This document shows positions 4,937 to 16,709 of a stretch of DNA of 64,000 nt, piece by piece (within the stretch, counting starts at the first letter, position 1; every line of letters begins with the position of its first letter). The DNA comes from an uncultured Sphingorhabdus sp. (lineage in GTDB: Bacteria > Pseudomonadota > Alphaproteobacteria > Sphingomonadales > Sphingomonadaceae). The notes beneath the pieces are model-generated. The model was not told the origin of the DNA. It made no database searches and was given only the letters and a program-made list of their open reading frames with translations. A program made the position numbers and the translations under genes. The DNA lies in NCBI GenBank assembly GCA_963508315.1, contig CAUOWK010000001.1, positions 496,930 through 560,929 of the forward strand, given 5' to 3'.

Positions 4937-5146
4937 TCAAAACATCTCGATCTGGTTGCGGGCATTGGTGTCGAACAGGCCGTGATCGGCGGGGCGCTGC
5001 GCCTTGCGCGGCTCCAGCGGCGCGTTGGCGCGCATGGCGAGACGGTCGCGGGGCGTGATCGGCGCAACGCCGTAAACAAGTGTCTGCTCACCGATTGGGG
5101 TCTGCTCGGACGCCAGCCGGTCTTTGGAAGGGAGCGCGGCGCTCAT
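4937..5146 (-). CDS. Small hypothetical protein (69 aa)
   Basis: Overlaps the ardC stop by 4 nt and fills the operon gap; plausible composition ending GLFD...QIEMF. Confidence 0.65.
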   Translation of the reverse strand: MSAALPSKDRLASEQTPIGEQTLVYGVAPITPRDRLAMRANAPLEPRKAQRPADHGLFDTNARNQIEMF

Positions 5147-6120
5147 GCCGCCCGCGCCAAGGTGGATTCGCTCTCACGAACGAACGCCAACAGAAAATCC
5201 GCTGCCTTGCTGGCTTGCGATGCCGCCTTGAAAATGGCGCGATTGTCAGCGCGCAGCACGGTAAGCCACGAGCCGAGATAATCCGCATGGCGGACGGTCG
5301 GGACGATACCAAGCGCCGCGCAGAGGTAGGCCGAGGCCAATTCGGCGCATAATTCCTCGCGGGCATAGAGCGCGGAACCGAAACGCCCCGACTGGTCACG
5401 CGCCAGCCGCTCCTTGCTGCCCGTCCAGTGGCCGAGTTCGTGCAAAGCCGTCCGGTAAAAGTCGATCTGGTAGGCAAAGGCCGGTTGCGGCGGCACCTGC
5501 ACATAATCGCCGCCAACGTCATAGAAGGCCCGCGCCCCGCCGATGCGGAAATCCGCACCCGTCGCGGCAATCAACGCTTCCGCGCTGTCATGCTGTTCGC
5601 GGGCCGGTAACGGCGTGGGGTCGGCTGTCAGCCGCTCCGGCAAACCGTCACACTGCGCTGCATTGAACACGACAAAGCGTTTGAGGAACGGAATTGAGCG
5701 GGGTTCGCCCTCCGGCACGTCTCCACCTTCGCGCCCATCGTCGGGCGTGAAGCGGTCAGCATAGAAAATCGTTTGCCCGCGCTCACCCTTGCGAACGCAT
5801 CCGCCAGCGGCCAGCGCCTGCCGGAAGGTCAACCAATCCTGCGACGGGTAGCAGCCATCAATGACCGCGCCCCACAGAATGAGAACATTGACGCCCGAAT
5901 AGGGGCGTCCCGAAACCGCGTTGCGGGGGAGTCCCGGCACTGCTGCCGCCGAACTCCACGGCTGCGCCCACGGGAAGCGGCCCGCTTCTAGCTGGGCGAT
6001 AATCTTCGCCGTCACCTCGTCATAGAGCGAAGCGCGGGGCGTATCGCCCCCGTGCGCGGCGCGCAGCGCCGCCTTACCCTTGCCGCCAAAACTACGTTTC
6101 CGATTGCCAACCGCCATCAC
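5143..6120 (-). CDS. ardC: ArdC-family antirestriction / ssDNA-binding protein (DUF1738 + zincin-like domain)
   Basis: GRFPWAQPW, YSGVNVLILW, WLTFRQA, VRKGERG, HELGHWTG zincin motif, YAREELCAEL. Confidence 0.9.
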   Translation of the reverse strand: MMAVGNRKRSFGGKGKAALRAAHGGDTPRASLYDEVTAKIIAQLEAGRFPWAQPWSSAAAVPGLPRNAVSGRPYSGVNVLILWGAVIDGCYPSQDWLTFRQALAAGGCVRKGERGQTIFYADRFTPDDGREGGDVPEGEPRSIPFLKRFVVFNAAQCDGLPERLTADPTPLPAREQHDSAEALIAATGADFRIGGARAFYDVGGDYVQVPPQPAFAYQIDFYRTALHELGHWTGSKERLARDQSGRFGSALYAREELCAELASAYLCAALGIVPTVRHADYLGSWLTVLRADNRAIFKAASQASKAADFLLAFVRESESTLARAA

Positions 6121-6725
6121 AGCCTCCTCGCCCTAAAAACCACACCGACCCCGGAGAGGGGGGTGGGCGGCAAAGAGCGACCAAGAGGCCCGGCGCGATC
6201 AGGCGCACCTGTAAGGCTGTAACGGAGTGAAAGACCCGGCTTGCGGGTTGCGCCTGAGCGCGGCGGGCCTAGCCGGAAGCGCCGCCCATCCCCCTCTTCG
6301 GGGACGGCACAAAATCGCCGGCGCACCCGCGCCGTCCAAAATCAGTCGAATATCATTGAAAGAACATCGCCGCGCAGCGGCCGAGCAAGAACGGCACCCT
6401 TGCACGGCGCGACGCCAGCCGGACGTCCTGCGCGCGGGCCTGTGGGCCAGCGGGCGTCCGGCCAGGAGAGAGGCAAGAGTGCCAGCGGGTCAGCCAAAAG
6501 ACTCCGCACCCTCAAGGAGCGCGTTAGCAGCGGGAAAGAGTGCGACCTTAGAAAATCCCGCTCATTTTCCGGGGCGTTGCGGGGTGTCCCCGCAGAAGGG
6601 GTCCGGCGAAACCGCGTAGCGGGTTTGGCGGCAGGGGAAAGCTTTCCCCAGATAAATTCACAGCTTTTACGAAAAGGTACAAAATAGGAACTTACATCCG
6701 CAAGACTATCTGGCAGAACAACAAA

Positions 6726-9700
6726 ATGGATATTGACGCGATCATTGCGGCAAACGCTCCGCCCGATACGCCATCGGGCGCGATCACAAATACGCCAAAA
6801 CTGTATTCGTTCTTCCGAAAGCTGGATGCTGTTGGCACGGCCTCGATGTTAGCGGGCTTGCAGACGTTCTCAGATCATCAAGCAAACTACAGACTTGAAT
6901 GGGCTGCACGATTGGCGTTGGCAGTGGGGTCCGGAAATATACTGCCCAATCCGCCACAGCTTCGCACCCTACTCAATGACCTTCTTGAGAAGAGCCGCGT
7001 GAATCGGCTTGAAGATCCACTTGAGGACGTCATGGTGTCCGCCATTCCCACCGCGCAAGGTGATTATAGACTCCTCACGGGACTTTGGGAAAAGGCTGCG
7101 CATCATACAGAGTCGGTCCTGCGCGCGTTCGAGCGTCTGCCGGACGACGAGCAGAAGCAAGCCGCACTCATACGCGCCTATGCGTTGTTGCAGATTTCAG
7201 ATTTGATCTGCGAGCGTTCAAACCTTGCTGCAAACGCAATGGGCGTTAGCAACCCACGCGAACCGATGCGGCTGACCGGCGTTGGGTTGCTCGCAACCGC
7301 GAAGGCGCGCGTCGAGTTTGGCTGGGACGAGTTGACGGCGTTAGGAGTGTCGAAGGAAATTTTAACGCCATTCCTGCTTCCGCCAACGGCATTTGCGGAT
7401 TTGCTGGAAAAGGCGCTCGGCGACTCCGAGTTAGAGTTCCGGCCCCTTGTGCAAACAGAAGCGGGGATCGCTGTAGTCGCGCCGACGAATTTATCGACGG
7501 CTATTCGTAGCCACCTGATCAACTTAGCGATTGCAGGCGGACAAGGTGATGCCCTGCGCCGCAAGCTGCTACTGGTGCATTCTGAGATCATCGAAACCGG
7601 CAGTTTCACCCGAATGGTGGGGCAAATCAGCGCATTTGGGCATGATGGATATTGCCGAGAGCACATCCAGAAATTGTGCGAGGGAAGATATGTCCATGCC
7701 ATTCAGGCAATCGACGGCTTTGGTGCTTGGCCAAAAAATGCTTTTTGCGCCGATAGCGATGTCGGCAGCAACGCCTTCGGTAATGCTTTGGCTGGCGCAA
7801 TTGCCACGGCTCAAGCCGAGATTGAGGCCAAAACCGACTTCATTGCAGGTGTCAGTTTTGTATTCTTGAGCGGCTGGGGATCGGGCCATTCGTTCAGTTG
7901 GCCCCGTAATGCCGCAATGTCGCGGTGGCAGATCATTTTCATGGAACCCGAAGACGCAATGTTCCTTGGTGCCTGCGAAGACGGAAAGATCGAGGACATT
8001 TGGCGAATGGACAAGCAGCGTGAGCTTGTTGCAGCCCAAGGATTTCATTTCCAGAACGCAAACGGACTCCTTAACATTTTCGAATGGTGGCGAAGCACCA
8101 ACAGCATGTTCATTCCCGAGCATGTCTTGGACGCCCAACCGCCCACTACAATCTATTTCGATACCAATCTGCTGCTCGAAGCCCGGCGGGAGGCGGTCGA
8201 AGCACTGGGTAGACATTGCCTGCCAACACCAAGCGGCAACCCGTTGTTGGTGATGCGACTAGATACCAAGAGCCACTTTTCGGGGCGACAGCCCGTATTC
8301 GCATCAATGGCGGCAGCAAAGTCAGGAATCCTGATGGCAGCGGTAGAGTGTGAACGCGGCGTTGTCTGGGTTCAACTAATGACCGACCGCGACGACCCTA
8401 ACGCATTTGATGCTCACGAAACATGGTCCGCATTGCTTGCTTGGGCGGGACGGTTGCTTGATCCATTTCTGCGTCAGCACGGTCTCCAACTGAATAAGCC
8501 GATTCTCATCCGTTTCGTTGTCGGCTTCCAAAAAGATCGCGATCTTCAGGACATGACCGATGCCGAAATCCTTGAAACGGTCAGCGTTGGTTGGGATCAT
8601 GTCAGCGGTTGCATCGGGCTTTTTGCAGCCCCTGCATGGCATATTGGCTTGCAGCGCAAAGAGAATATCGCCGAAGCTGTGCTGGCGGCAAATTTCTTGT
8701 CGGGTGTCGCTAGTGCGACCGGAACGACGATTTCGCCTGCTCATCTGGTCGATTTCGCGGTGAAGGAAATTGGCAGCCCCTTTGCGCGATGGCGGCATTC
8801 ATTTCTGGCTGAGCGCCCCATAGATATGCTCAAGGCACTTGGTTTGGTGCCCCGTTTCCGCGCCATCCCCCAATCCGCCGCCGCACTGGTCAAAACGGGA
8901 CTTGGCTGGATGAGTCAGTCAAGATCAGATGGCTATTTGATCGAAGGCAAGGCCGAATGCCGCGCTTTTCTCGATGATCAGCACAATCGGCTGCTGCACT
9001 CACTTCTGATCGAGGTAGCAAAATATGACCGCCATAGCCTTGTTGGTGCCTGCCTTACCGCTATGCAGGCCGCTCAAGGAGATGGACGGGGCTGGCAGGA
9101 AACCGCGTTGGCTTTGCAGTCCATTCACGGACGACAGGAAGATTTTGACGTTAGTTTTAATCAAGGCGGTAAGGCCAATGCCGTCATCCGTGCTGCGTCC
9201 ATGCTGGTGGAACTCGCGGTCGCAGAATCACCGGTTTCCGGCGGAAGGCCGATCGGCTATTTCGATTTCGACGAACTCCAAGCCCATGCCGCATTGCTAT
9301 TCAAGAACGCGGATACGATCCCGGCGATAGAGGGTGGGTGGATAAAGGCCACGATCAAAATCGCGCCAACAGGTGACGTATTGCTTGATCGGTCATTTGA
9401 AGAGGCAAGCCTGCAAAAGGCGGCTGAAATTCGTCATCAAGGCGAGCGCGACACTAAGGCAGAGCGTCAGGGCAATACAAGCACAGACCCGGGCGGCATG
9501 TCTGATCCCGGCGCAGCACTTACGGCAGCAATAGAAGCCGAATTTGGGGTAGGCGATGATTTGTATTTCGGGTTTGCCAATGCGCTCTCGATCATCGCTG
9601 AAACCGTAAAATCTGGCGTTTTCTCGATGCGACGGTCCGAACTGCGAATGGCGGTAAATGGTCAGGACGAGCAGTTGCGAGACCTTTCACCGCTCATAGA

Positions 9701-10466
9701 TCGTTACACGCTACCGTGCCGTAAGGGATGGGCTGCAACTCCGGCTGGCGTATCAGCCCGAGATTATGATCTCGCAAAGTTTGACCGCCGCTTCTCACTT
9801 ATTGGTCGTCCGATAGTCGCGATTGACGATGATAACGACCCATTGCTGATGCTGGCGCCCGGAGTCGTCGAGCGCAGCTTGTTCCATAATTTGGGAGGGG
9901 CGCTCACAGGCGGTCTCCAAAATGAATTCTGGTCGAGCGGGGAGATGCAAAAGTTCGCCAGCAGGCGCGGCGACGAGACTGGTTTGGCGTTTAATGATGA
10001 ACTCGCCCGCGAGCTGGTCGCTCTCGGCTTGGAAGCCCACGCCTCAGCGAAGCTCACTTGGTGCCTAAATCACAAAGGGACAGATGAGGTGAAGCGGCTC
10101 GGTGACGTCGATGTATTGGTATTTTCACCAGATCGCACACGTGTTTGGGTTATCGAGGCCAAGGATTTGAAGATGTGTCGGACACTCGGTGAAACGGCGC
10201 GCCGTCTGTCCGAATATCAAGGAATAACAAAGGAAAACGGGAAGCCGGACAATTTGTTGAAGCACCTCAACCGCGTCGATTATGTTAGAAAATATGCCTC
10301 CGACCTTCAAAGTCGCTTCAAGCTGACACACCTGCCGAAAGTTTCGGGTATGGTGGTCGTAGGATCGCCGCAGCCAATGGAGATGATCGCAATCAAGGGC
10401 GGAAAGGATGCGGTGACGGTGCGAAAGGAAAGTCTGTTACAAGTGCCGTGGGACGACGGATATTGA
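6726..10466 (+). CDS. Large uncharacterised protein (1246 aa) with C-terminal PD-(D/E)XK/NERD-like nuclease motifs
   Basis: 3.7-kb open frame; C-terminal LGDVDVLVFSPDRTRVWVIEAKDL and KHLNR resemble PD-(D/E)XK motifs II-IV; first ~1000 aa not recognised. Confidence 0.75.
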   Translation: MDIDAIIAANAPPDTPSGAITNTPKLYSFFRKLDAVGTASMLAGLQTFSDHQANYRLEWAARLALAVGSGNILPNPPQLRTLLNDLLEKSRVNRLEDPLEDVMVSAIPTAQGDYRLLTGLWEKAAHHTESVLRAFERLPDDEQKQAALIRAYALLQISDLICERSNLAANAMGVSNPREPMRLTGVGLLATAKARVEFGWDELTALGVSKEILTPFLLPPTAFADLLEKALGDSELEFRPLVQTEAGIAVVAPTNLSTAIRSHLINLAIAGGQGDALRRKLLLVHSEIIETGSFTRMVGQISAFGHDGYCREHIQKLCEGRYVHAIQAIDGFGAWPKNAFCADSDVGSNAFGNALAGAIATAQAEIEAKTDFIAGVSFVFLSGWGSGHSFSWPRNAAMSRWQIIFMEPEDAMFLGACEDGKIEDIWRMDKQRELVAAQGFHFQNANGLLNIFEWWRSTNSMFIPEHVLDAQPPTTIYFDTNLLLEARREAVEALGRHCLPTPSGNPLLVMRLDTKSHFSGRQPVFASMAAAKSGILMAAVECERGVVWVQLMTDRDDPNAFDAHETWSALLAWAGRLLDPFLRQHGLQLNKPILIRFVVGFQKDRDLQDMTDAEILETVSVGWDHVSGCIGLFAAPAWHIGLQRKENIAEAVLAANFLSGVASATGTTISPAHLVDFAVKEIGSPFARWRHSFLAERPIDMLKALGLVPRFRAIPQSAAALVKTGLGWMSQSRSDGYLIEGKAECRAFLDDQHNRLLHSLLIEVAKYDRHSLVGACLTAMQAAQGDGRGWQETALALQSIHGRQEDFDVSFNQGGKANAVIRAASMLVELAVAESPVSGGRPIGYFDFDELQAHAALLFKNADTIPAIEGGWIKATIKIAPTGDVLLDRSFEEASLQKAAEIRHQGERDTKAERQGNTSTDPGGMSDPGAALTAAIEAEFGVGDDLYFGFANALSIIAETVKSGVFSMRRSELRMAVNGQDEQLRDLSPLIDRYTLPCRKGWAATPAGVSARDYDLAKFDRRFSLIGRPIVAIDDDNDPLLMLAPGVVERSLFHNLGGALTGGLQNEFWSSGEMQKFASRRGDETGLAFNDELARELVALGLEAHASAKLTWCLNHKGTDEVKRLGDVDVLVFSPDRTRVWVIEAKDLKMCRTLGETARRLSEYQGITKENGKPDNLLKHLNRVDYVRKYASDLQSRFKLTHLPKVSGMVVVGSPQPMEMIAIKGGKDAVTVRKESLLQVPWDDGY

Positions 10467-10508
10467 GCGTCAGTCTTGCACATTGCTTCGATTTGCCAGT
10501 CCGAGTTG

Positions 10509-11897
10509 TCAATCCGGTGGACCCATTGCTGCGTTTTCGATCACGCGGTCTGTGTGAGCAACCATTTCGTTGTACCACCGGCTCAGCTGCTTGTTTGACA
10601 CAGCTTCCGCGCGGAGCCCGTCTGCACCGATAAGCGACAGCGAGCTTAGCAAGGCACTGCGCCCGATGTCCGCCCCTAAGCCGACGCCTTCGTAAACCAG
10701 ATCCGATGTAGGCGACAACGAGCCGTGAACTAGTTTTGAGCGGATATCATAGGCACGCTTGGTGTCATCGCGCCACTTCTCGCGATTTTCCGCTGTTGGT
10801 TCTTCGAGACAGAGCGCGGCAACTCGCGATGATACCATCGCGGCGATGTCGTCTTTCTCATCGGTCATCACCATTCGTTCCAGCGCAGTGACATATTTGA
10901 CAGCTTTGGCTCCTTGGGACGTCTCGCGGACAGCTTCACCATACCATTGAGCGGCGTCGAGAAACCTGTCGCTGATTGGCCTTTGAAGTGCAGGGTTTGC
11001 AGCAGCTTCGAGTGCTATTCCAAGTCCATTGATTGCTGCTTGCGCTTCCTCATCTGAAAAGAGACTGAGCCAATCATCGTTAAACCCAACTTCGCCGGGG
11101 CCGCCATAAGAGGCGCGATATGAAAGCTCACCCACATCATTGGTATTGAATCCACCGCGTTTGTCATACCCGATGCCGGGTCCGCCTACGGTCATTTTCT
11201 TTGAGTGCCGAGCACCAAACAGGACATGAAGGCAATTCAAAGCCGCGAAGACGGCTTTGGTCGCAGTGGATTCAGATACGTCCTTGTCACAGCCGGTTAC
11301 AGTGATCTCAGCCACCCATCCAAAGGTTTTGAAATAGCGAACGGCATCAAAAATGACACGACGGTTTAGCTTCCGATCAATCACGCGGTTCGCAATAATG
11401 AGATCAGCCAGCTTTTTTCGGAATGTAGCTCGATTAAGAAATCGGACTGGGCCAAGCTGGAATGTAGATGGCTGCTGCGACAGCATAAGGTGGCACGGAA
11501 CATAGTGCGTGAGATCGGACGTAGTCGCTGCGATACGACGGGCGGTTTCTGATAGCGCACGATCAATATGCTTGATCTCAATTGGCCGTCCTTCACGAAC
11601 GAACTTACGAACCAAGACTTCTGCCATCACCTTCCGGGCTGGCTCGATCGAAACCAGCCGTTGAAGCTTCTCCCGTTCCAACGCGACACGGGTAATGCCT
11701 TCTAACTTACCAAAGCCAGCTCTGCTGCACATCATCTTACCGTTAGGCCAGTTGTGTGTCGGATGCGGCAAATCGCAGAAAGCGTCTTCACGCGGCAGAT
11801 CGGCGAAGCGGCCCTCATTCACCATAGCATTAAGACGTGCGCACTCTTCAAAAATGAAGGCAACATCCGCTATCAATTGATCTTTGCTAATCCCCAT
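10509..11897 (-). CDS. HEPN-domain protein (Apea-like HEPN at C-terminus)
   Basis: FLDAAQWYGEA, YVTALERMV and AYDIRSKLVHG (RxxxxH) pattern typical of Apea-like HEPN. Confidence 0.75.
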   Translation of the reverse strand: MGISKDQLIADVAFIFEECARLNAMVNEGRFADLPREDAFCDLPHPTHNWPNGKMMCSRAGFGKLEGITRVALEREKLQRLVSIEPARKVMAEVLVRKFVREGRPIEIKHIDRALSETARRIAATTSDLTHYVPCHLMLSQQPSTFQLGPVRFLNRATFRKKLADLIIANRVIDRKLNRRVIFDAVRYFKTFGWVAEITVTGCDKDVSESTATKAVFAALNCLHVLFGARHSKKMTVGGPGIGYDKRGGFNTNDVGELSYRASYGGPGEVGFNDDWLSLFSDEEAQAAINGLGIALEAAANPALQRPISDRFLDAAQWYGEAVRETSQGAKAVKYVTALERMVMTDEKDDIAAMVSSRVAALCLEEPTAENREKWRDDTKRAYDIRSKLVHGSLSPTSDLVYEGVGLGADIGRSALLSSLSLIGADGLRAEAVSNKQLSRWYNEMVAHTDRVIENAAMGPPD

Positions 11898-11918
11898 CGA
11901 CGCTGACTGGCCTGTTCC

Positions 11919-14900
11919 TCACGCGGCATAGCGCCCATCGGGCAACCGCCGTGCCTGACCAATGGCTGTCAGCGCATCCAGCACCGGTGTAACACCTTTT
12001 GCATTCGTGCCCTGGATGGCGCGGGCGATGTCGCGGGGGTGTTGGGGGATTGGGGCTGCGGCGAGAATAGCGGCGACGGCGCTGACTTGTTCGGCGAGCG
12101 TCTTAGGCCAGGGGATGATTGCTGAGGGTGCGGCAACCGGGGCATCTCCGAGGTCGAGCGTGGCGTTGACTTGCGGGGCCGTGGCACCGGGGGACTGGAA
12201 TTCGGGACGAAGCCAGCGGATCACGCCCTTTGCCTCTTCGGTGGCACGGGTCTTGTTGAGTGCAACCAAGCGCGTGAGGATGTCTTCATCGCTCAGGTCA
12301 GCGGGCCAGCCATAGGCTTCGGCGACGGCCGTATCTATTGCATCGTGATGCTGCCGGATCAGCGTCACCAACCCGCGATCATGGATGTCGCGCTCCTTAT
12401 CGGTCAGTGCGCGGCCTGCTCTCAATGCTTCCACCACGTTATAGAGGCCGGTCAGGGTCAGATCGTCATGCGCGGCCAGCACTTGTTTACGCAAGGCGTC
12501 GAGCGCTTCCGCTTCGGAGCGGATGCGGGATTTGAGCGGATCGGGAACATCTGCCGGGAATGGGAAAGGGTCGAAGCAACGCGACTTCACATAGACCGGG
12601 TCGTCACCCATCCCCAATCGCCCACCGCTTTCAATGGCCCACGGCACATGAAAACGGCTCGAAAGAACACCAAGGAAATAAGCGTCATCAAGTGCGATGC
12701 AGGCCAGCTTGTTATCCGGCAGGATCGACATGGGGAGGAACTGGAACACGCGGTGTTTGGCGGTTTCGATGGTTGCGATGTAGCGCGTCACCCCTGATAG
12801 TGCTTTGCGGAGTTCACTACGTGCTTCACCGAACAACCACCAATTATCACGATAGCTGGCGCGATTGTTCTGCTCACGGTGTGGCTTCACTGTTGTCGCA
12901 ACATGCTGATAGACCGCTGGATAGCGATCCCTGACTTGCGCTTCGGTCAGGCCGTAAAGGTCGATCACTTTCACCCCGCGCGGACGGGAAGCAAGATCGC
13001 GCCCGTTGCGATAGTCAAAAATCACTTGGACATCGCCCGCACCGCCCGTGCGAATTCGCGCTTCCTCCCGTTTTCCATCATCCAAGGATGCAGAACCTTG
13101 GCCTTCTTCGGGGTGACGTAAGAAGGCTTGTGGACGACCCACAACGCCACTCGGACGTCCCGCCCACGCCGAAGCAGGATCGAGTAATACCACCTGCGCA
13201 GGCGTGACGATAAAGCCGTCGCCCATTAACTGGACGCCGCGTGAGGCGAGCTTATCATTTGCCTTCAACGGAATTGTGGACGCAACATTCGCACCAATGC
13301 GTAGGTCGGCGCTAATCTGCCCGATATTGATGCCGAATGTAACCGTTTGCGGTGCCGCAGTTTCGTCCAAAACGGTTTGCATCATCCCTGAATCGCGCCC
13401 GGATTTTCGTTGCGGTTCAACCACGGTCATAGCGATGCGGACGGCGGCCCCGTCCTTTTCATCTACCCAAGGGTGATTGGGAATCGCAAATCTCAGGCTG
13501 ACGCCTGCCTTGGCATCCAGATGTTTGGCGATAACGCGACGGCTGAAAACCTGCGTAATGCTGTTGGTGGTGACGAAGCCAAAGCGCCGGGACTTGTCCT
13601 TGCGTAGCGCAACCGCCGCCTTATCCCACCAGTGCATAACAAAATCCGCGCTTTCGGGAACATCGGTGGTCTTGAACAGCGCATCAAAATAGCCGCCACC
13701 CAATCGCTCACGCACATCCTTGCCGCCAATAAACGGTGGATTGCCAACGATGAAATCGGCCTTTGGCCACTTCGCGGCCTTGGGCGTGACGTAACGCTCC
13801 ACCTCTACCCGCGCATCCTCATCTGGCACTTTTTTGCCCGTTACGGGATGCAGCTTCATCGTCTCACCGTCCCAGCGTGTGAGCGGCTTGCCATGCTCGT
13901 CCCGCTCCAGCACTTTCTTGTCCCAAGTAATCAGCGCATCGCGGTTTTCGATGGTCTTCACGTCGCGCAGTACGGGTTCGGGCGGCACTTTGCCTTCGCC
14001 GTTCACGCGGAAATGCCATTGCAGATAGCCGATCCACAACACGAGTTGGGCAATCGCCGCCGCGCGGGGGTTGATCTCGATGCCGAGGAAATTTTCGGGC
14101 GTAATCGTGTGACCGCTTAGCTCTGCCACTGCCTGCTTCTCGCCGTCGGGTTCGAGTTCGGCCAGTCGTCCGATCACTTCGCCCTCCAGCTCCTTCATCC
14201 GGGCAAGCGCGACATAAAGGAAGTTTCCGGTGCCGCAGGCAGGATCAAGCACTTTGATCTGGGCGAGTTGCGCATGGAATTTCTCGATTACGGCGTGGGC
14301 TTCTTCGGCCTTACCCGCCTCAATCAACTGACCGGCAGCGGCCTGCACCCCAGCCCAATCGGCGCGCAGCGGCTCCATGATCGTCGGCATGACGAGCCGC
14401 TCGACATAGGCGCGCGGGGTGTAATGCGCGCCGAGCTTGGCACGTTCCTTACCATCCAACGCGCGTTCAAGCAGCGTGCCGAAGATCGCGGGTTCGACAT
14501 GGTTCCACTTGTGCGTTGCCGCCTCGATCAACAGGCCGATCTCGTCGGCATTGAGCGCAATCGCCGTGGTATCTTTGAACAGATAGCCGTTGAAGTGCAG
14601 CACCGTTTCGCCAGCTTCGCCCAGAACACCGGCCAAACCGCCCTTATCCATCGCCTGCCATAGCGATGACAGGTTCGGCGCGAAGTTCTCCGGGCGCTTC
14701 TGCATCCGGGTAAGGAAGTTCGTGAAGCTGCCTTCCGGGATCAACTGCACATCCTCGGCGAACATCGTGAACAGGCAGCGCATCAGGAAATCGGCGACGC
14801 GGGTGGGGTTCTGCTCACTCTTTTCCAGGCGTTTGGAAAGTTCCGCCAGATGCCCGGCAATCTCGCGTGTAACGCGGGCGGCTTCTTTTGACGGGTCAAG

Positions 14901-15530
14901 ACTGAGCGGGTCCGTCCAGATCGTCGCAAGCCGCGTGCGGACGTCATCGCTCCGCAAATCGTCTAGCGCGATGCGGAAACGGGCGGCATCTGGGAATTGG
15001 GTGTATTGCTTCCCGGTTCCGCTGAAATCGGCATAGACGTCGATGCAGTGGCCGACGTCGGTGACGAGCAGGAAGGGCGGCCAACCGTGATCAATCGGCA
15101 GCGCCTTGGCATAGCGTTCGGCCTGTCCGCGCGCCTCGACCATTGCCTTTGACCAAGTGGGTGTGCCGCGCTTGGCCGTGCCGCGCTTGAAACGGGCGGC
15201 GGCGGTCTGGCCGAAAATGTCGAGGTCGGCTTCGCCCTGTTCTGCGGCCTTGCGGTCGGCGTCGCTGCCCTGTTTGGCCTCCAGCACGAAGCAGTGGCGT
15301 TTGTAGGCGTCGATTCGGCCGAAACTTTCGGTGCCATCGGCTTCCTTCTGGAACACGCGACGCTCGAACACATAATCATTGTGGGTGTCATCGGTGCGGC
15401 TGCCCTTGGGCGGATCGACGCCGATCAGGGCGCAAAGGCCGTTGACGAAACTTTGCGTGTTCGCGAGTTCAGAGCCGCCGGTCAGCGCCCATTCGGAAAT
15501 GAAGGATTCGAGTTTGTCGCTATCTGACAC
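11919..15530 (-). CDS. MmeI-like type IIL single-chain restriction endonuclease / N6-adenine methyltransferase
   Basis: N-terminal ELANTQSF and RIDAY..FVLEAK nuclease motifs; GAHYTP, VLDPACGTGNFL (motif I), IVGNPPF (motif IV); C-terminal target-recognition region; GTG start. Confidence 0.9.
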   Translation of the reverse strand: MSDSDKLESFISEWALTGGSELANTQSFVNGLCALIGVDPPKGSRTDDTHNDYVFERRVFQKEADGTESFGRIDAYKRHCFVLEAKQGSDADRKAAEQGEADLDIFGQTAAARFKRGTAKRGTPTWSKAMVEARGQAERYAKALPIDHGWPPFLLVTDVGHCIDVYADFSGTGKQYTQFPDAARFRIALDDLRSDDVRTRLATIWTDPLSLDPSKEAARVTREIAGHLAELSKRLEKSEQNPTRVADFLMRCLFTMFAEDVQLIPEGSFTNFLTRMQKRPENFAPNLSSLWQAMDKGGLAGVLGEAGETVLHFNGYLFKDTTAIALNADEIGLLIEAATHKWNHVEPAIFGTLLERALDGKERAKLGAHYTPRAYVERLVMPTIMEPLRADWAGVQAAAGQLIEAGKAEEAHAVIEKFHAQLAQIKVLDPACGTGNFLYVALARMKELEGEVIGRLAELEPDGEKQAVAELSGHTITPENFLGIEINPRAAAIAQLVLWIGYLQWHFRVNGEGKVPPEPVLRDVKTIENRDALITWDKKVLERDEHGKPLTRWDGETMKLHPVTGKKVPDEDARVEVERYVTPKAAKWPKADFIVGNPPFIGGKDVRERLGGGYFDALFKTTDVPESADFVMHWWDKAAVALRKDKSRRFGFVTTNSITQVFSRRVIAKHLDAKAGVSLRFAIPNHPWVDEKDGAAVRIAMTVVEPQRKSGRDSGMMQTVLDETAAPQTVTFGINIGQISADLRIGANVASTIPLKANDKLASRGVQLMGDGFIVTPAQVVLLDPASAWAGRPSGVVGRPQAFLRHPEEGQGSASLDDGKREEARIRTGGAGDVQVIFDYRNGRDLASRPRGVKVIDLYGLTEAQVRDRYPAVYQHVATTVKPHREQNNRASYRDNWWLFGEARSELRKALSGVTRYIATIETAKHRVFQFLPMSILPDNKLACIALDDAYFLGVLSSRFHVPWAIESGGRLGMGDDPVYVKSRCFDPFPFPADVPDPLKSRIRSEAEALDALRKQVLAAHDDLTLTGLYNVVEALRAGRALTDKERDIHDRGLVTLIRQHHDAIDTAVAEAYGWPADLSDEDILTRLVALNKTRATEEAKGVIRWLRPEFQSPGATAPQVNATLDLGDAPVAAPSAIIPWPKTLAEQVSAVAAILAAAPIPQHPRDIARAIQGTNAKGVTPVLDALTAIGQARRLPDGRYAA

Positions 15531-15587
15531 GGATTGTCTTTAGCCGTCGAAGCTCATTACTCGCAATCAACAAACGGCGTAGCAGTT

Positions 15588-16709
15588 TCATTTGGAATCA
15601 ACGCCCTCATCGACGGTAAGCCAATACCGCGCATAGCGCCGCTCGCCAGTGCGGGTCAGCGCACCCTTTTCGATCAAGTCGTTCAGATCGCGGGTAGCAG
15701 TCGCCAGACTGGCATCCGTGATCGTCCGGTAATTCCCGGCGCTCAAACCACCCGCAAAGCCGTCCGGCCCTTCACGAAACAGGCGCAGCAAAGCCTTTTC
15801 CTGCCGTTCGTTGATCTGCCCACGCAAGCGATCCAGCAGTCGCGTCTTGTCGATCAGGAAGCGGATACGCGTGATCGTCCGCGCCTGCGCCTCGATGACA
15901 ATATCGGCAAACCATGTCAGCCAGGCATCAATGTCGTTGCTCTGGCTGCCGAGCTGGAGGGCGGCATAATAGGCTTTGCGGTGGCGATGGATCGTTTCCG
16001 CGAGCGCCGTCAGCGTCGGGGCCGCAAGGTTTTGCGCCAAAGCCTTTTCAGCAATCGCGCGCCCGATCCGGCCATTGCCATCCTCGAAGGGATGGATGCT
16101 CTCAAACCACAGGTGCGAGATAGCGGCTCGGGTGATCGCCGGAAGCGGGTTCGCAGATGCCGGTGCGCTGTCGTTGAACCACGCTATGAAACGGGACATT
16201 TCCGCAGGAACGGTATCGGACGGCGGTGCCTCGAAATGCACACGCGGCGCGTGAAGCGCGCCCGAAACGATCTGCATCGCATCTTCATGGCTGCGATAGC
16301 GCCCGACATCGGCAATATCGCGCCGCACGTTCATCAACATTGCGTGCCATGCGAACAGGGTCTGGTCGTCAAGCGGTGCAGCATGGTTGCGGTAAACATC
16401 GGCCATCAATTCAGCGGCCCCGGCCTCTGCCGCACTGGCGCGGCGCTGGTCGGTGGCAAAGCCCAGATGCCGTGCAAGCGACGACTGAACGCTGGCGCGG
16501 TCGAGGATTTCACCTTCGATGGCGGAGCTATCGACCACTTCTTGTGAAATCAGTTCGATGGTCAGGCCATCGCGCGCATCGGCGTCAAGGTGGTGCAGCG
16601 CGCCAATGACGACGCCCGAGCCTTTCAGGAATTGCTCGTCGGACGCGCGGATGCGATCCGCGTCGAAGCGGAAATCAGGCCAGTCGGGAAGTTGCCAGTT
16701 CCAGCGCAT
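15588..16709 (-). CDS. Fic family protein with DUF4172-type N-terminus and C-terminal wHTH
   Basis: MRWNWQLPDWP start, canonical HPFEDGNGRIGR Fic motif, ATATRDLNDL helix. Confidence 0.92.
   Translation of the reverse strand: MRWNWQLPDWPDFRFDADRIRASDEQFLKGSGVVIGALHHLDADARDGLTIELISQEVVDSSAIEGEILDRASVQSSLARHLGFATDQRRASAAEAGAAELMADVYRNHAAPLDDQTLFAWHAMLMNVRRDIADVGRYRSHEDAMQIVSGALHAPRVHFEAPPSDTVPAEMSRFIAWFNDSAPASANPLPAITRAAISHLWFESIHPFEDGNGRIGRAIAEKALAQNLAAPTLTALAETIHRHRKAYYAALQLGSQSNDIDAWLTWFADIVIEAQARTITRIRFLIDKTRLLDRLRGQINERQEKALLRLFREGPDGFAGGLSAGNYRTITDASLATATRDLNDLIEKGALTRTGERRYARYWLTVDEGVDSK

What the first reader, a model, noticed from the sequence alone, without database searches (positions are those of the whole stretch)
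6726..10466. 1246-aa unknown protein with a C-terminal PD-(D/E)XK/NERD-like nuclease: candidate novel single-gene anti-phage system
Seen: an intact 3.7-kb stand-alone ORF inserted against the backbone orientation. The last ~200 aa carry GDVDVL-x(9)-VIEAK and KHLNR, preceded by RRFSLIGRP, and the ~1000-aa N-terminal region has no motif I recognise (no Walker A, methylase or helicase motifs). It lies directly beside a HEPN gene, a type IIL R-M gene and a Fic gene. Established: a large sensor region fused to a nuclease effector is a common architecture of abortive-infection systems, which cluster in defence islands on ICEs. Inference: an undescribed sensor-nuclease defence protein. The usual motif-I Glu appears as Asn (GLAFNDEL), so catalysis needs testing.
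Basis: partly seen in the sequence, partly recalled or inferred. Interest (0 to 1): 0.82.

Follow-up and report, generated by a model that had tools for sequence, protein, structure and literature searches.

The report
Divergent Upx anti-phage nuclease gene

Summary
It is not an undescribed system. It matches the PADLOC model Upx over its full length (E 9e-136). It matches NCBIfam 'anti-phage protein Upx' (E 1.4e-153, below the narrow equivalog cut-off). It also matches the cryo-EM chain 9WUF_A of Salmonella Upx (E 2.7e-91, residues 30-1217 against 44-1247). An AlphaFold2 model of residues 25-1224 (pLDDT 86.7) superposes on 9WUF with TM 0.79, the only significant PDB hit. The catalytic triad D1129/E1144/K1146 aligns with SeUpx D1161/E1176/K1178 and is invariant in 122 diverse representatives. 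Homologues are stand-alone genes with changing neighbours on integrative or conjugative elements, and 8 of 200 other species of the same bacterial family carry one. The most likely mechanism, by homology, is that the N-terminal sensor binds a phage large-terminase ATPase domain and the C-terminal PD-(D/E)XK nuclease is switched on (Evans 2026). A rival published model is a dual nuclease activated by gp16 (Zhou 2026). It is a new member of a known kind and of low interest.

The parts
6657..6685 (+). Weak sigma-70-like promoter candidate, about 40 nt upstream of the ATG.
   Evidence: Consensus scan gives TTCACA-17-CAAAAT, 9 of 12 matches. This is a pattern match only. DNA homology to the 77%-identical locus L001 starts at 6679, so only about 47 bp of 5' region travels with the gene.
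6726..10466 (+). Upx-family anti-phage gene (1246 aa plus stop).
   Evidence: Searches show the ORF. PADLOC Upx E 9e-136. NCBIfam NF042954 E 1.4e-153. PDB 9wuf_A E 2.7e-91. AF2 model against 9WUF gives TM 0.79.
6726..8213 (+). N-terminal domain (residues 1-496), the sensor domain. It corresponds to SeUpx NTD 1-515.
   Evidence: The boundary was mapped from the HMMER alignment to 9wuf_A (SeUpx H516 aligns with H497), using the domain limits given in PMC13099982.
7011..7028 (+). E96-D97-P98-L-E100-D101, a nearly invariant acidic loop just before the beta-hairpin that carries G112-D113-Y-R115.
   Evidence: Conserved in 117, 120, 113, 117 and 109 of 122 representatives at E96, D97, P98, E100 and D101. 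The hairpin is at model residues 80-85 and 88-93, which are protein residues 104-109 and 112-117.
8214..8813 (+). Middle domain (residues 497-696). It corresponds to SeUpx MD 516-714.
   Evidence: Alignment to 9wuf_A (SeUpx Q715 aligns with R697). It is the least conserved domain, with mean column conservation 0.32.
8814..9980 (+). Helical part of the C-terminal domain (residues 697-1085). It includes the family-invariant R1021/S1024/P1029 of RRFSLIGRP.
9981..10463 (+). PD-(D/E)XK nuclease core (residues 1086-1246). It corresponds to the SeUpx core 1121-1272.
   Evidence: Alignment. The model shows alpha-beta-beta-beta-alpha-beta secondary structure. 16 positions are at least 90% conserved.
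10110..10163 (+). Catalytic codons: D1129 (10110-10112), E1144 (10155-10157) and K1146 (10161-10163).
   Evidence: They align with SeUpx D1161, E1176 and K1178. They are invariant in 30 of 30 clade members and in 122 of 122 representatives. E1176A and E1176A/K1178A abolish defence in SeUpx (PMC13601566; PMC13099982).
10509..11897 (-). Context only: a 462-aa HEPN-like protein (RSKLVH motif). It is not part of Upx.
   Evidence: some sources name homologues 'Apea-like HEPN' or 'HEPN domain-containing protein'. It is absent next to Upx in L001, L002, L003, L012 and L013.
11919..15530 (-). Context only: MmeI-like type IIG/IIL restriction-modification enzyme.
   Evidence: Pfam MmeI_N, MmeI_hel, MmeI_Mtase and MmeI_TRD. 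PADLOC REase_MTase_IIG, 1501 bits.
15588..16709 (-). Context only: DUF4172-Fic protein that matches the PADLOC SoFic model.
   Evidence: Pfam. PADLOC SoFic E 5.8e-44.

Best explanation
The gene encodes a divergent member of the Upx family (about 24-26% identical to the Salmonella prototype). Upx is a monomeric, single-polypeptide anti-phage system carried as cargo in the defence island of an integrative conjugative element. Shown here: full-length sequence and fold homology to Upx; an intact, family-invariant D-ExK active site in the C-terminal PD-(D/E)XK domain; and stand-alone, horizontally moving gene organisation. Inferred from published work on homologues: during infection the large N-terminal and middle region binds the ATPase domain of the phage large terminase. 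AlphaFold 3 models in that work suggest a partly unfolded state held by beta-augmentation. Binding would release the C-terminal Mg2+-dependent nuclease, which degrades DNA and stops the infection, probably at the cost of the cell. Family membership is about 0.95 likely. The terminase-trigger step, for this particular protein, is about 0.6.
For: PADLOC PDLC02221 'Upx' matches at E 9e-136, residues 30-1220 against profile positions 44-1249 of 1271. NCBIfam NF042954 'anti-phage protein Upx' matches at E 1.4e-153 over 30-1224. PDB 9wuf_A, the cryo-EM chain of Upx, matches at E 2.7e-91 over 30-1217 against 44-1247. The AF2 model (pLDDT 86.7, pTM 0.85) matches 9WUF at Foldseek E 5.9e-63 and TM 0.79/0.78, and no other hit has E below 0.1. 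D1129/E1144/K1146 align with SeUpx D1161/E1176/K1178 and are invariant in 122 of 122 representatives, as are R1021, P1029 and R1183. The protein keeps 61 of the 62 positions that are at least 90% conserved in the family. All 41 homologues in the large protein database carry the precomputed Pfam family PF28173 'Upx-like'. The gene moves alone: DNA homology to L001 covers only 6679-10466, and its neighbours differ between loci but are integrases, T4SS and relaxase genes, R-M enzymes and TacAT. The distribution is patchy: 8 of 200 other species of the same family and 0 of 2 of the same genus carry a homologue. From the literature: SeUpx, HpUpx (16% identical to each other) and PbUpx are all activated by diverse terminase ATPase domains, and E1176A abolishes both defence and toxicity (PMC13601566).
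Against: No experiment exists for this protein or for any close relative. The score is far below NCBIfam's equivalog cut-off (512.8 against 1900 bits), so sameness of function is inferred at family level only. The published trigger is disputed. Zhou et al. report activation by gp16 and direct immunity rather than abortive infection (PMC13099982). The terminase-binding mode rests on AlphaFold 3 models, not on a solved complex. One conserved family residue is changed here: Q915 where 113 of 122 representatives have Tyr.
Confidence: 0.88

Rival explanations
1. The protein is still a Upx-family member, but it works as Zhou et al. 2026 propose. In that model it is a dual nuclease whose N-terminal 'minimal PD-(D/E)XK' 3'-5' ssDNA exonuclease is auto-inhibited by the middle domain. 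A phage ejection protein of the gp16 type releases the inhibition. The enzyme then degrades single-stranded replication intermediates and gives direct, non-abortive immunity.
For: PMC13099982 reports NTD nuclease activity, loss of defence with D127A/R129A, binding of gp16, and cell growth at MOI 3. In this protein the GDYR hairpin motif (D113, R115) and D159 match SeUpx D127, R129 and D173.
Against: Two of the five reported NTD catalytic residues differ here: SeUpx D122 corresponds to P108 and E147 to R133. Across 122 representatives these positions are poorly conserved. The D127 column is N in 59, D in 25 and E in 12. The D122 column has no dominant residue. The E147 column is D 40, N 34, E 14 and R 9. 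This is unusual for an essential active site. Evans et al. found that gp16 does not activate SeUpx and that terminase was the only hit in a screen of the whole phage genome. HpUpx also protects against T4, which has no gp16 homologue.
Confidence: 0.2
2. One reading: an undescribed, novel single-gene sensor-nuclease defence system.
For: The local Pfam-A copy gives no hit. Sources name the homologues 'hypothetical protein'. The NCBIfam score is below the naming cut-off.
Against: There are full-length matches to Upx in PADLOC, NCBIfam, the PDB sequence and the PDB fold. The homologues carry Pfam PF28173 'Upx-like'.
Confidence: 0.02
3. Upx here works as one component of a multi-gene system together with the adjacent HEPN protein, or with the MmeI-like enzyme and Fic.
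For: The same four genes occur in the same order on the 97%-identical metagenomic contig L011. The stop codon of Upx is 42 bp from the convergent HEPN gene.
Against: At 84%, 82%, 77%, 39% and 35% identity the neighbours are different, namely a Type ISP-like R-M enzyme, DEAD/ResIII plus AAA_16 proteins, an integrase, or unrelated genes. DNA homology to L001 ends exactly at the Upx stop codon. SeUpx defends as a single gene. The genes are convergent, so they are not an operon.
Confidence: 0.03
4. The gene is an intact-looking but non-functional or re-purposed relic, for example one used in competition between mobile elements rather than in phage defence.
For: Only the lack of direct data supports this. 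One relative genome (G160) holds a Upx broken into three frames, so decay does occur. Q915 replaces a conserved Tyr.
Against: There are no stops or frameshifts. 61 of 62 highly conserved positions are kept, including the whole active site. The AF2 model is of high confidence. Close relatives at 73-97% identity all keep the full length.
Confidence: 0.05

Closest known systems
SeUpx, Salmonella enterica NCTC6026 (SQI81149.1; PDB 9WUF). Upx was first reported by Gao et al. 2020 in Science.
   Same: Length is similar (1246 against 1272 aa). The two align end to end (30-1217 against 44-1247). The three-domain fold is the same (TM 0.79). The D-ExK triad, the GK-PD-x-L-K-H-L-x-R helix and the GDYR hairpin are shared. 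Both are single-gene, stand-alone systems.
   Different: Identity is only about 24-26%. Motif-I is Asn here against Glu in SeUpx. SeUpx D122 and E147 correspond to Pro and Arg here. The host is an alphaproteobacterial sphingomonad and the gene sits on an ICE. This protein is untested.
HpUpx (Hydrobacter penzbergensis) and PbUpx (Pyrinomonadaceae), the terminase-sensing Upx homologues of Evans et al. 2026 (PMC13601566).
   Same: They belong to the same family. They show that defence and terminase sensing are kept between members only 16% identical, which supports transferring the function to this member.
   Different: The position of this protein in their 895-member tree is unknown.
Avs1-3 (antiviral STAND NTPases).
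   Same: The logic is the same: one large polypeptide senses the phage large terminase and carries a nuclease effector.
   Different: This protein has no STAND NTPase or TPR domains (no Pfam hit). Its fold is unrelated: 8dgc (Avs3) gives TM 0.09. Upx is a monomer in the apo state.
FokI and other PD-(D/E)XK restriction endonucleases.
   Same: The C-terminal core has the PD-(D/E)XK fold and the D...ExK motif. FokI is the second, non-significant Foldseek hit, and Zhou et al. name it as similar.
   Different: The match is not significant (E 0.25). There is no DNA-recognition domain and no methyltransferase partner. SeUpx cuts ssDNA from the 3' end and does not cut dsDNA in vitro.

Membership tests
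Upx anti-phage family (PADLOC Upx; Pfam PF28173 Upx-like) | Full-length match to the family profile | tested here: met
   PADLOC PDLC02221 matches at E 9e-136 and 452 bits, residues 30-1220 against 44-1249 of 1271. NCBIfam NF042954 matches at E 1.4e-153 over 30-1224 against 26-1226 of 1240.
Upx anti-phage family (PADLOC Upx; Pfam PF28173 Upx-like) | Pfam PF28173 hit | tested here: inconclusive
   The local Pfam-A copy lacks this model and returned no hit. All 41 homologues at 33-97% identity carry PF28173 in the precomputed table.
Upx anti-phage family (PADLOC Upx; Pfam PF28173 Upx-like) | Three-domain fold (NTD, MD, CTD) as in cryo-EM structure 9WUF | tested here: met
   The AF2 model (pLDDT 86.7, pTM 0.85) matches 9WUF at Foldseek E 5.9e-63, TM 0.79/0.78, over 1242 columns.
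Upx anti-phage family (PADLOC Upx; Pfam PF28173 Upx-like) | C-terminal catalytic D...ExK (SeUpx D1161, E1176, K1178) | tested here: met
   D1129, E1144 and K1146 align with them. They are invariant in 122 of 122 representatives.
Upx anti-phage family (PADLOC Upx; Pfam PF28173 Upx-like) | Single-gene, stand-alone organisation of about 1250 aa | tested here: met
   The neighbours vary across 7 loci. DNA homology is limited to the gene plus 47 bp. Representatives are mostly 1200-1300 aa long.
Upx anti-phage family (PADLOC Upx; Pfam PF28173 Upx-like) | Protects against phage, and protection depends on the ExK motif | not testable with these tools
   This is shown only for SeUpx and HpUpx (PMC13099982, PMC13601566).
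Upx anti-phage family (PADLOC Upx; Pfam PF28173 Upx-like) | Activated by the ATPase domain of the phage large terminase | not testable with these tools
   No tool for predicting complexes was available. This is shown for three homologues in PMC13601566.
Upx anti-phage family (PADLOC Upx; Pfam PF28173 Upx-like) | NTD 'minimal nuclease' residues (SeUpx D122, D127, R129, E147, D173; Zhou 2026) | tested here: inconclusive
   Three of five are kept (D113, R115, D159). Two are changed (P108, R133). These columns are poorly conserved across the family, so they may not define it.
NCBIfam NF042954 Upx_antiphage (equivalog, the narrow SeUpx-like group) | Score at or above the curated cut-off of 1900 bits | tested here: not met
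   The score is 512.8 bits. The protein is therefore not an equivalog of SeUpx by NCBI's rule, which explains the 'hypothetical protein' labels on its homologues.
PD-(D/E)XK nuclease superfamily (C-terminal core) | Alpha-beta-beta-beta-alpha-beta core with D on beta2 and ExK on beta3 | tested here: met
   Model strands 1104-1109 and 1115-1123 correspond to protein residues 1128-1133 and 1139-1147. They carry D1129 and E1144/K1146 and are flanked by helices. The alignment is to the SeUpx core 1121-1272.
NERD domain (Pfam PF08378) | Match to the NERD profile | tested here: not met
   There is no Pfam hit at E 0.01 or better.

The most novel reading that the evidence does not exclude
The conservation pattern across the family suggests that the published 'second nuclease' site in the Upx N-terminal domain is not the conserved functional site. 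The residues called catalytic in SeUpx vary freely across 122 representatives, and two of the five are changed here. The adjacent acidic loop E96-D97-P98-x-E100-D101 is nearly invariant and is not mentioned in the main text of the structural paper. If that loop is the real functional element of the sensor domain (for metal binding, for engaging terminase strands, or for signalling to the nuclease), this divergent clade would help settle the conflict between the two published mechanisms.
Probability: 0.3. Interest if true: 0.35.

Novelty: new member of a known kind. Interest (0 to 1): 0.15.

Why it matters
The result corrects the annotation. A gene that public sources call 'hypothetical protein' in a sphingomonad ICE is a Upx anti-phage protein, and it lies beside an ApeA-like HEPN gene, an MmeI-like R-M gene and a SoFic-like gene. 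The ICE therefore carries a compact four-system defence island next to its own ArdC anti-restriction gene. There is also a modest by-product for the field. Conservation across 122 diverse Upx representatives supports the C-terminal D-ExK site and a new N-terminal EDPxED loop as the constrained elements. It does not support the reported N-terminal catalytic residues. That bears on the open disagreement between the two 2026 papers about how Upx is triggered. No new kind of system is involved.

Tried and rejected
- The local Pfam-A scan of the protein gave no hit, because that copy lacks PF28173.
- Rfam found nothing in window 1-27000, and no tRNA gene was found in the window.
- A megablast of window 1-25000 against plasmids matched only the LysR, TDT-transporter and molybdoenzyme cassette at 17.4-23.6 kb, not the Upx region.
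- A tblastn of the protein against plasmids found only 4 weak records, so plasmids are not its main vehicle.
- Pfam, NCBIfam and PADLOC gave no hit for the HEPN-like neighbour.
- The AF2 model coordinates are not exposed to the Python box, so distances between the EDPxED loop, the GDYR hairpin and the C-terminal site could not be measured.
- A two-gene system with the HEPN gene was considered and rejected, because the neighbours of homologues vary.
- NERD membership was considered and rejected, because there is no profile hit.
Full report
**Observation**

The ORF at 6726-10466 on the + strand starts with ATG, encodes 1246 residues and has no internal stop. The only correction is that the spacer between GDVDVL and VIEAK is 10 residues, not 9.

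The gene lies opposite in orientation to its neighbours. These are ArdC (5143-6120, -), a 462-aa protein with an RSKLVH HEPN-type motif (10509-11897, -), an MmeI-like type IIG/IIL enzyme (11919-15530, -) and a DUF4172-Fic protein (15588-16709, -). G+C falls to about 55% over the gene, against 61-65% in the flanks to its left.

**What it is**

The local Pfam copy gives no hit, but three independent libraries identify the protein over its whole length.

- PADLOC model PDLC02221 'Upx' matches at E 9e-136, residues 30-1220 against profile 44-1249 of 1271.
- NCBIfam NF042954 'anti-phage protein Upx' matches at E 1.4e-153 and 512.8 bits over 30-1224. This is below the narrow equivalog cut-off of 1900 bits.
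- PDB chain 9wuf_A (1272 aa) matches at E 2.7e-91, residues 30-1217 against 44-1247.

All 41 homologues found in the large protein collection (33-97% identity) carry the precomputed Pfam family PF28173, which another tool names 'Upx-like'.

An AlphaFold2 model of residues 25-1224, built on a 30-sequence alignment, has mean pLDDT 86.7 and pTM 0.85. Foldseek against the PDB returns 9WUF, 'Cryo-EM structure of Upx', at E 5.9e-63 with TM 0.79/0.78 over 1242 columns. It is the only significant hit. The next hit is FokI at E 0.25. Membership of the Upx family is therefore established both by sequence and by fold.

**Active site**

The alignment of the C-terminal 346 residues to 9wuf_A puts D1129, E1144 and K1146 on SeUpx D1161, E1176 and K1178. 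Zhou et al. define these as the catalytic residues of the canonical PD-(D/E)XK core, and the E1176A and E1176A/K1178A mutants lose defence (PMC13099982; PMC13601566).

A HMMER search of 1.84 billion cluster representatives found 1587 relatives at E up to 1e-3 and 557 at E up to 1e-30. Most of the best 150 are full-length proteins of about 1250 aa, down to 23-25% identity. I aligned 122 full-length representatives (22-76% identical to the query). In that alignment:

- D1129, E1144, K1146, R1021, P1029 and R1183 are invariant.
- H1180 is kept in 120 of 122 and D1127 in 116 of 122.

SeUpx does have Glu at that column. Across the family, however, Asn is the most common residue (67/122), Glu is found in only 20/122, and the rest are T, A, S or V. 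Within the close clade, Asn is found in 29 of 30. This position is therefore not part of the invariant core, and the Asn is no sign of inactivity.

The protein keeps 61 of the 62 positions that are at least 90% conserved. The exception is Q915, where 113 of 122 have Tyr. It lies at the edge of a low-confidence linker.

**Domains**

Zhou et al. give the SeUpx limits as NTD 1-515, MD 516-714, CTD 715-1272 and nuclease core 1121-1272. Using the alignments, the domains here are:

| Domain | Residues |
|---|---|
| NTD | 1-496 |
| MD | 497-696 |
| Helical part of CTD | 697-1085 |
| Nuclease core | 1086-1246 |

**Gene organisation and context**

- The genome (2.96 Mb in 6 contigs) has one Upx copy.
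- The 20 kb upstream of the window encode TrbL/VirB6, VirB8, VirB9, VirB10, VirB11, VirD4/TraG, a relaxase and copper-resistance genes.
- The window adds ArsC, a ParB-like protein, DUF2958 and ArdC before Upx, and a tyrosine integrase at 24369-25724.

In other loci Upx keeps different company.

| Locus | Identity to this protein | Neighbours |
|---|---|---|
| L011 | 97% | The same four genes |
| L012, L013 | 84% and 82% | Convergent Type ISP-like R-M enzyme, TacAT, SSB, integrase or TrwC/TraG |
| L001 | 77% | Integrase, DUF2274, DEAD/ResIII and AAA_16 proteins |
| L003 | 39% | MobA, TraG, ParB, integrase |
| L002 | 35% | Small unknown genes beside UmuD/UmuC-type genes |

DNA similarity to L001 is confined to 6679-10466, which is the gene plus 47 bp. 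Of 200 other species of the same bacterial family, 8 have a homologue, at only 27-41% identity. Neither of the 2 other species of the same genus has one, and one genome holds a broken copy. This is the pattern of a stand-alone, horizontally transferred defence gene.

**How it most likely works**

This part is inferred from homologues. Evans et al. (PMC13601566) showed that SeUpx, HpUpx (16% identical to each other) and PbUpx are each activated by diverse phage large terminases. [quoted passage not shown] Their AlphaFold 3 models suggest that Upx binds a locally unfolded ATPase domain, with its strands threaded through the N-terminal sensor by beta-augmentation.

The function holds across 16% identity, and this protein keeps the fold and all but one of the positions that are at least 90% conserved. 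I therefore take terminase sensing followed by activation of the C-terminal nuclease as the best model, with a probability of about 0.6 for the trigger step.

The rival published model (Zhou et al., PMC13099982) differs on several points. It proposes a dual nuclease whose NTD 3'-5' ssDNA exonuclease is auto-inhibited by the MD and released by the phage ejection protein gp16. The enzyme then attacks 3' overhangs, forks and D-loops, and gives direct rather than abortive immunity.

My conservation analysis bears on this disagreement. Of the five NTD residues called catalytic in SeUpx, three are kept here (D113, R115, D159) and two are not (D122 corresponds to P108, E147 to R133). Across 122 representatives these columns vary:

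- D127 column: N 59, D 25, E 12.
- D122 column: no dominant residue.
- E147 column: D 40, N 34, E 14, R 9.
- R129 column: R 86, L 17.
- D173 column: D 67, E 38.

By contrast, the loop E96-D97-P98-x-E100-D101 is conserved in 109-120 of 122. It lies just before the hairpin that carries GDYR, and it does not appear in the main text of Zhou et al.. This is a lead, not a conclusion, because alignment error at 25% identity cannot be excluded.

**Comparison and novelty**

Upx was first reported by Gao et al. 2020 (ref. 17 of PMC13601566). It is a monomer in the apo state. It is in PADLOC, in DefenseFinder, in NCBIfam and in Pfam. The present protein is a divergent, untested member from an alphaproteobacterial ICE. 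The finding is a new member of a known kind and of low interest.

**Limits**

- No tool for predicting complexes was available.
- Model coordinates could not be inspected.

Noticed in passing
window 10509-11897 (-): This 462-aa protein has an RSKLVH (Rx4H) HEPN-type motif near its C-terminus. It has no hit in Pfam (even at E 10), NCBIfam or PADLOC. It has more than 120 homologue clusters, which some sources label 'Apea-like HEPN' or 'HEPN domain-containing protein'. Its N-terminal region of about 300 aa is unassigned.
   Followed up: partly
window 6726-16709; L011 260-10108: The ICE's island holds Upx, an ApeA-like HEPN protein, an MmeI-like type IIG R-M enzyme and a SoFic-like Fic protein (PADLOC SoFic E 5.8e-44). 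It lies directly beside the element's ArdC anti-restriction gene. The same four genes recur on a 97%-identical metagenomic contig, where the MmeI-like protein is 1158 aa rather than 1203 aa. The length difference may reflect variation in the target-recognition domain.
   Followed up: partly
window 7011-7028 (residues 96-101): The acidic loop EDPxED is conserved in 109-120 of 122 diverse Upx representatives. The N-terminal residues reported as catalytic in SeUpx (D122, D127, R129, E147, D173) are poorly conserved across the family. The loop is not mentioned in the main text of PMC13099982.
   Followed up: partly
window 9468-9470 (residue Q915): The only departure of this protein from the 62 positions that are at least 90% conserved in the family is Gln in place of Tyr (Tyr in 113 of 122). 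In the 30-sequence close-clade alignment, 10 sequences lack the Tyr (Q in 5, counting this protein, A in 4, E in 1). The residue lies next to a disordered Gly/Asp/Pro-rich linker with pLDDT below 50.
   Followed up: partly
L005 (G000:C1:477000-496929), upstream of the window: This stretch holds a type IV secretion gene set (TrbL/VirB6, VirB8, VirB9/CagX, VirB10/TrbI, VirB11, VirD4/TraG), an LPD7-domain protein, a MobA/VirD2-like relaxase and copper resistance genes (a multicopper oxidase and CopB). These are followed in the window by ArsC and a low-molecular-weight phosphatase. The element is therefore a metal-resistance ICE.
   Followed up: partly
L012 13777-17082 and L013 12136-15390: In the 84% and 82% identical relatives, Upx is followed by a convergent protein of about 1100 aa with N6_Mtase and Type_ISP_C domains (a Type ISP-like R-M enzyme), and a TacA/TacT toxin-antitoxin pair lies nearby. 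The slot downstream of Upx seems to be a hotspot that holds different single-polypeptide R-M enzymes.
   Followed up: no
G160:C1:2643843-2647363: A genome of the same family holds a Upx homologue split into three separate frames, which is probably a pseudogene.
   Followed up: no
window 6121-6725: A 600-bp G+C-rich gap lies between ArdC and Upx. It has several terminator-like hairpins on the - strand and no Rfam hit. It is not conserved with the region upstream of Upx in L001.
   Followed up: partly
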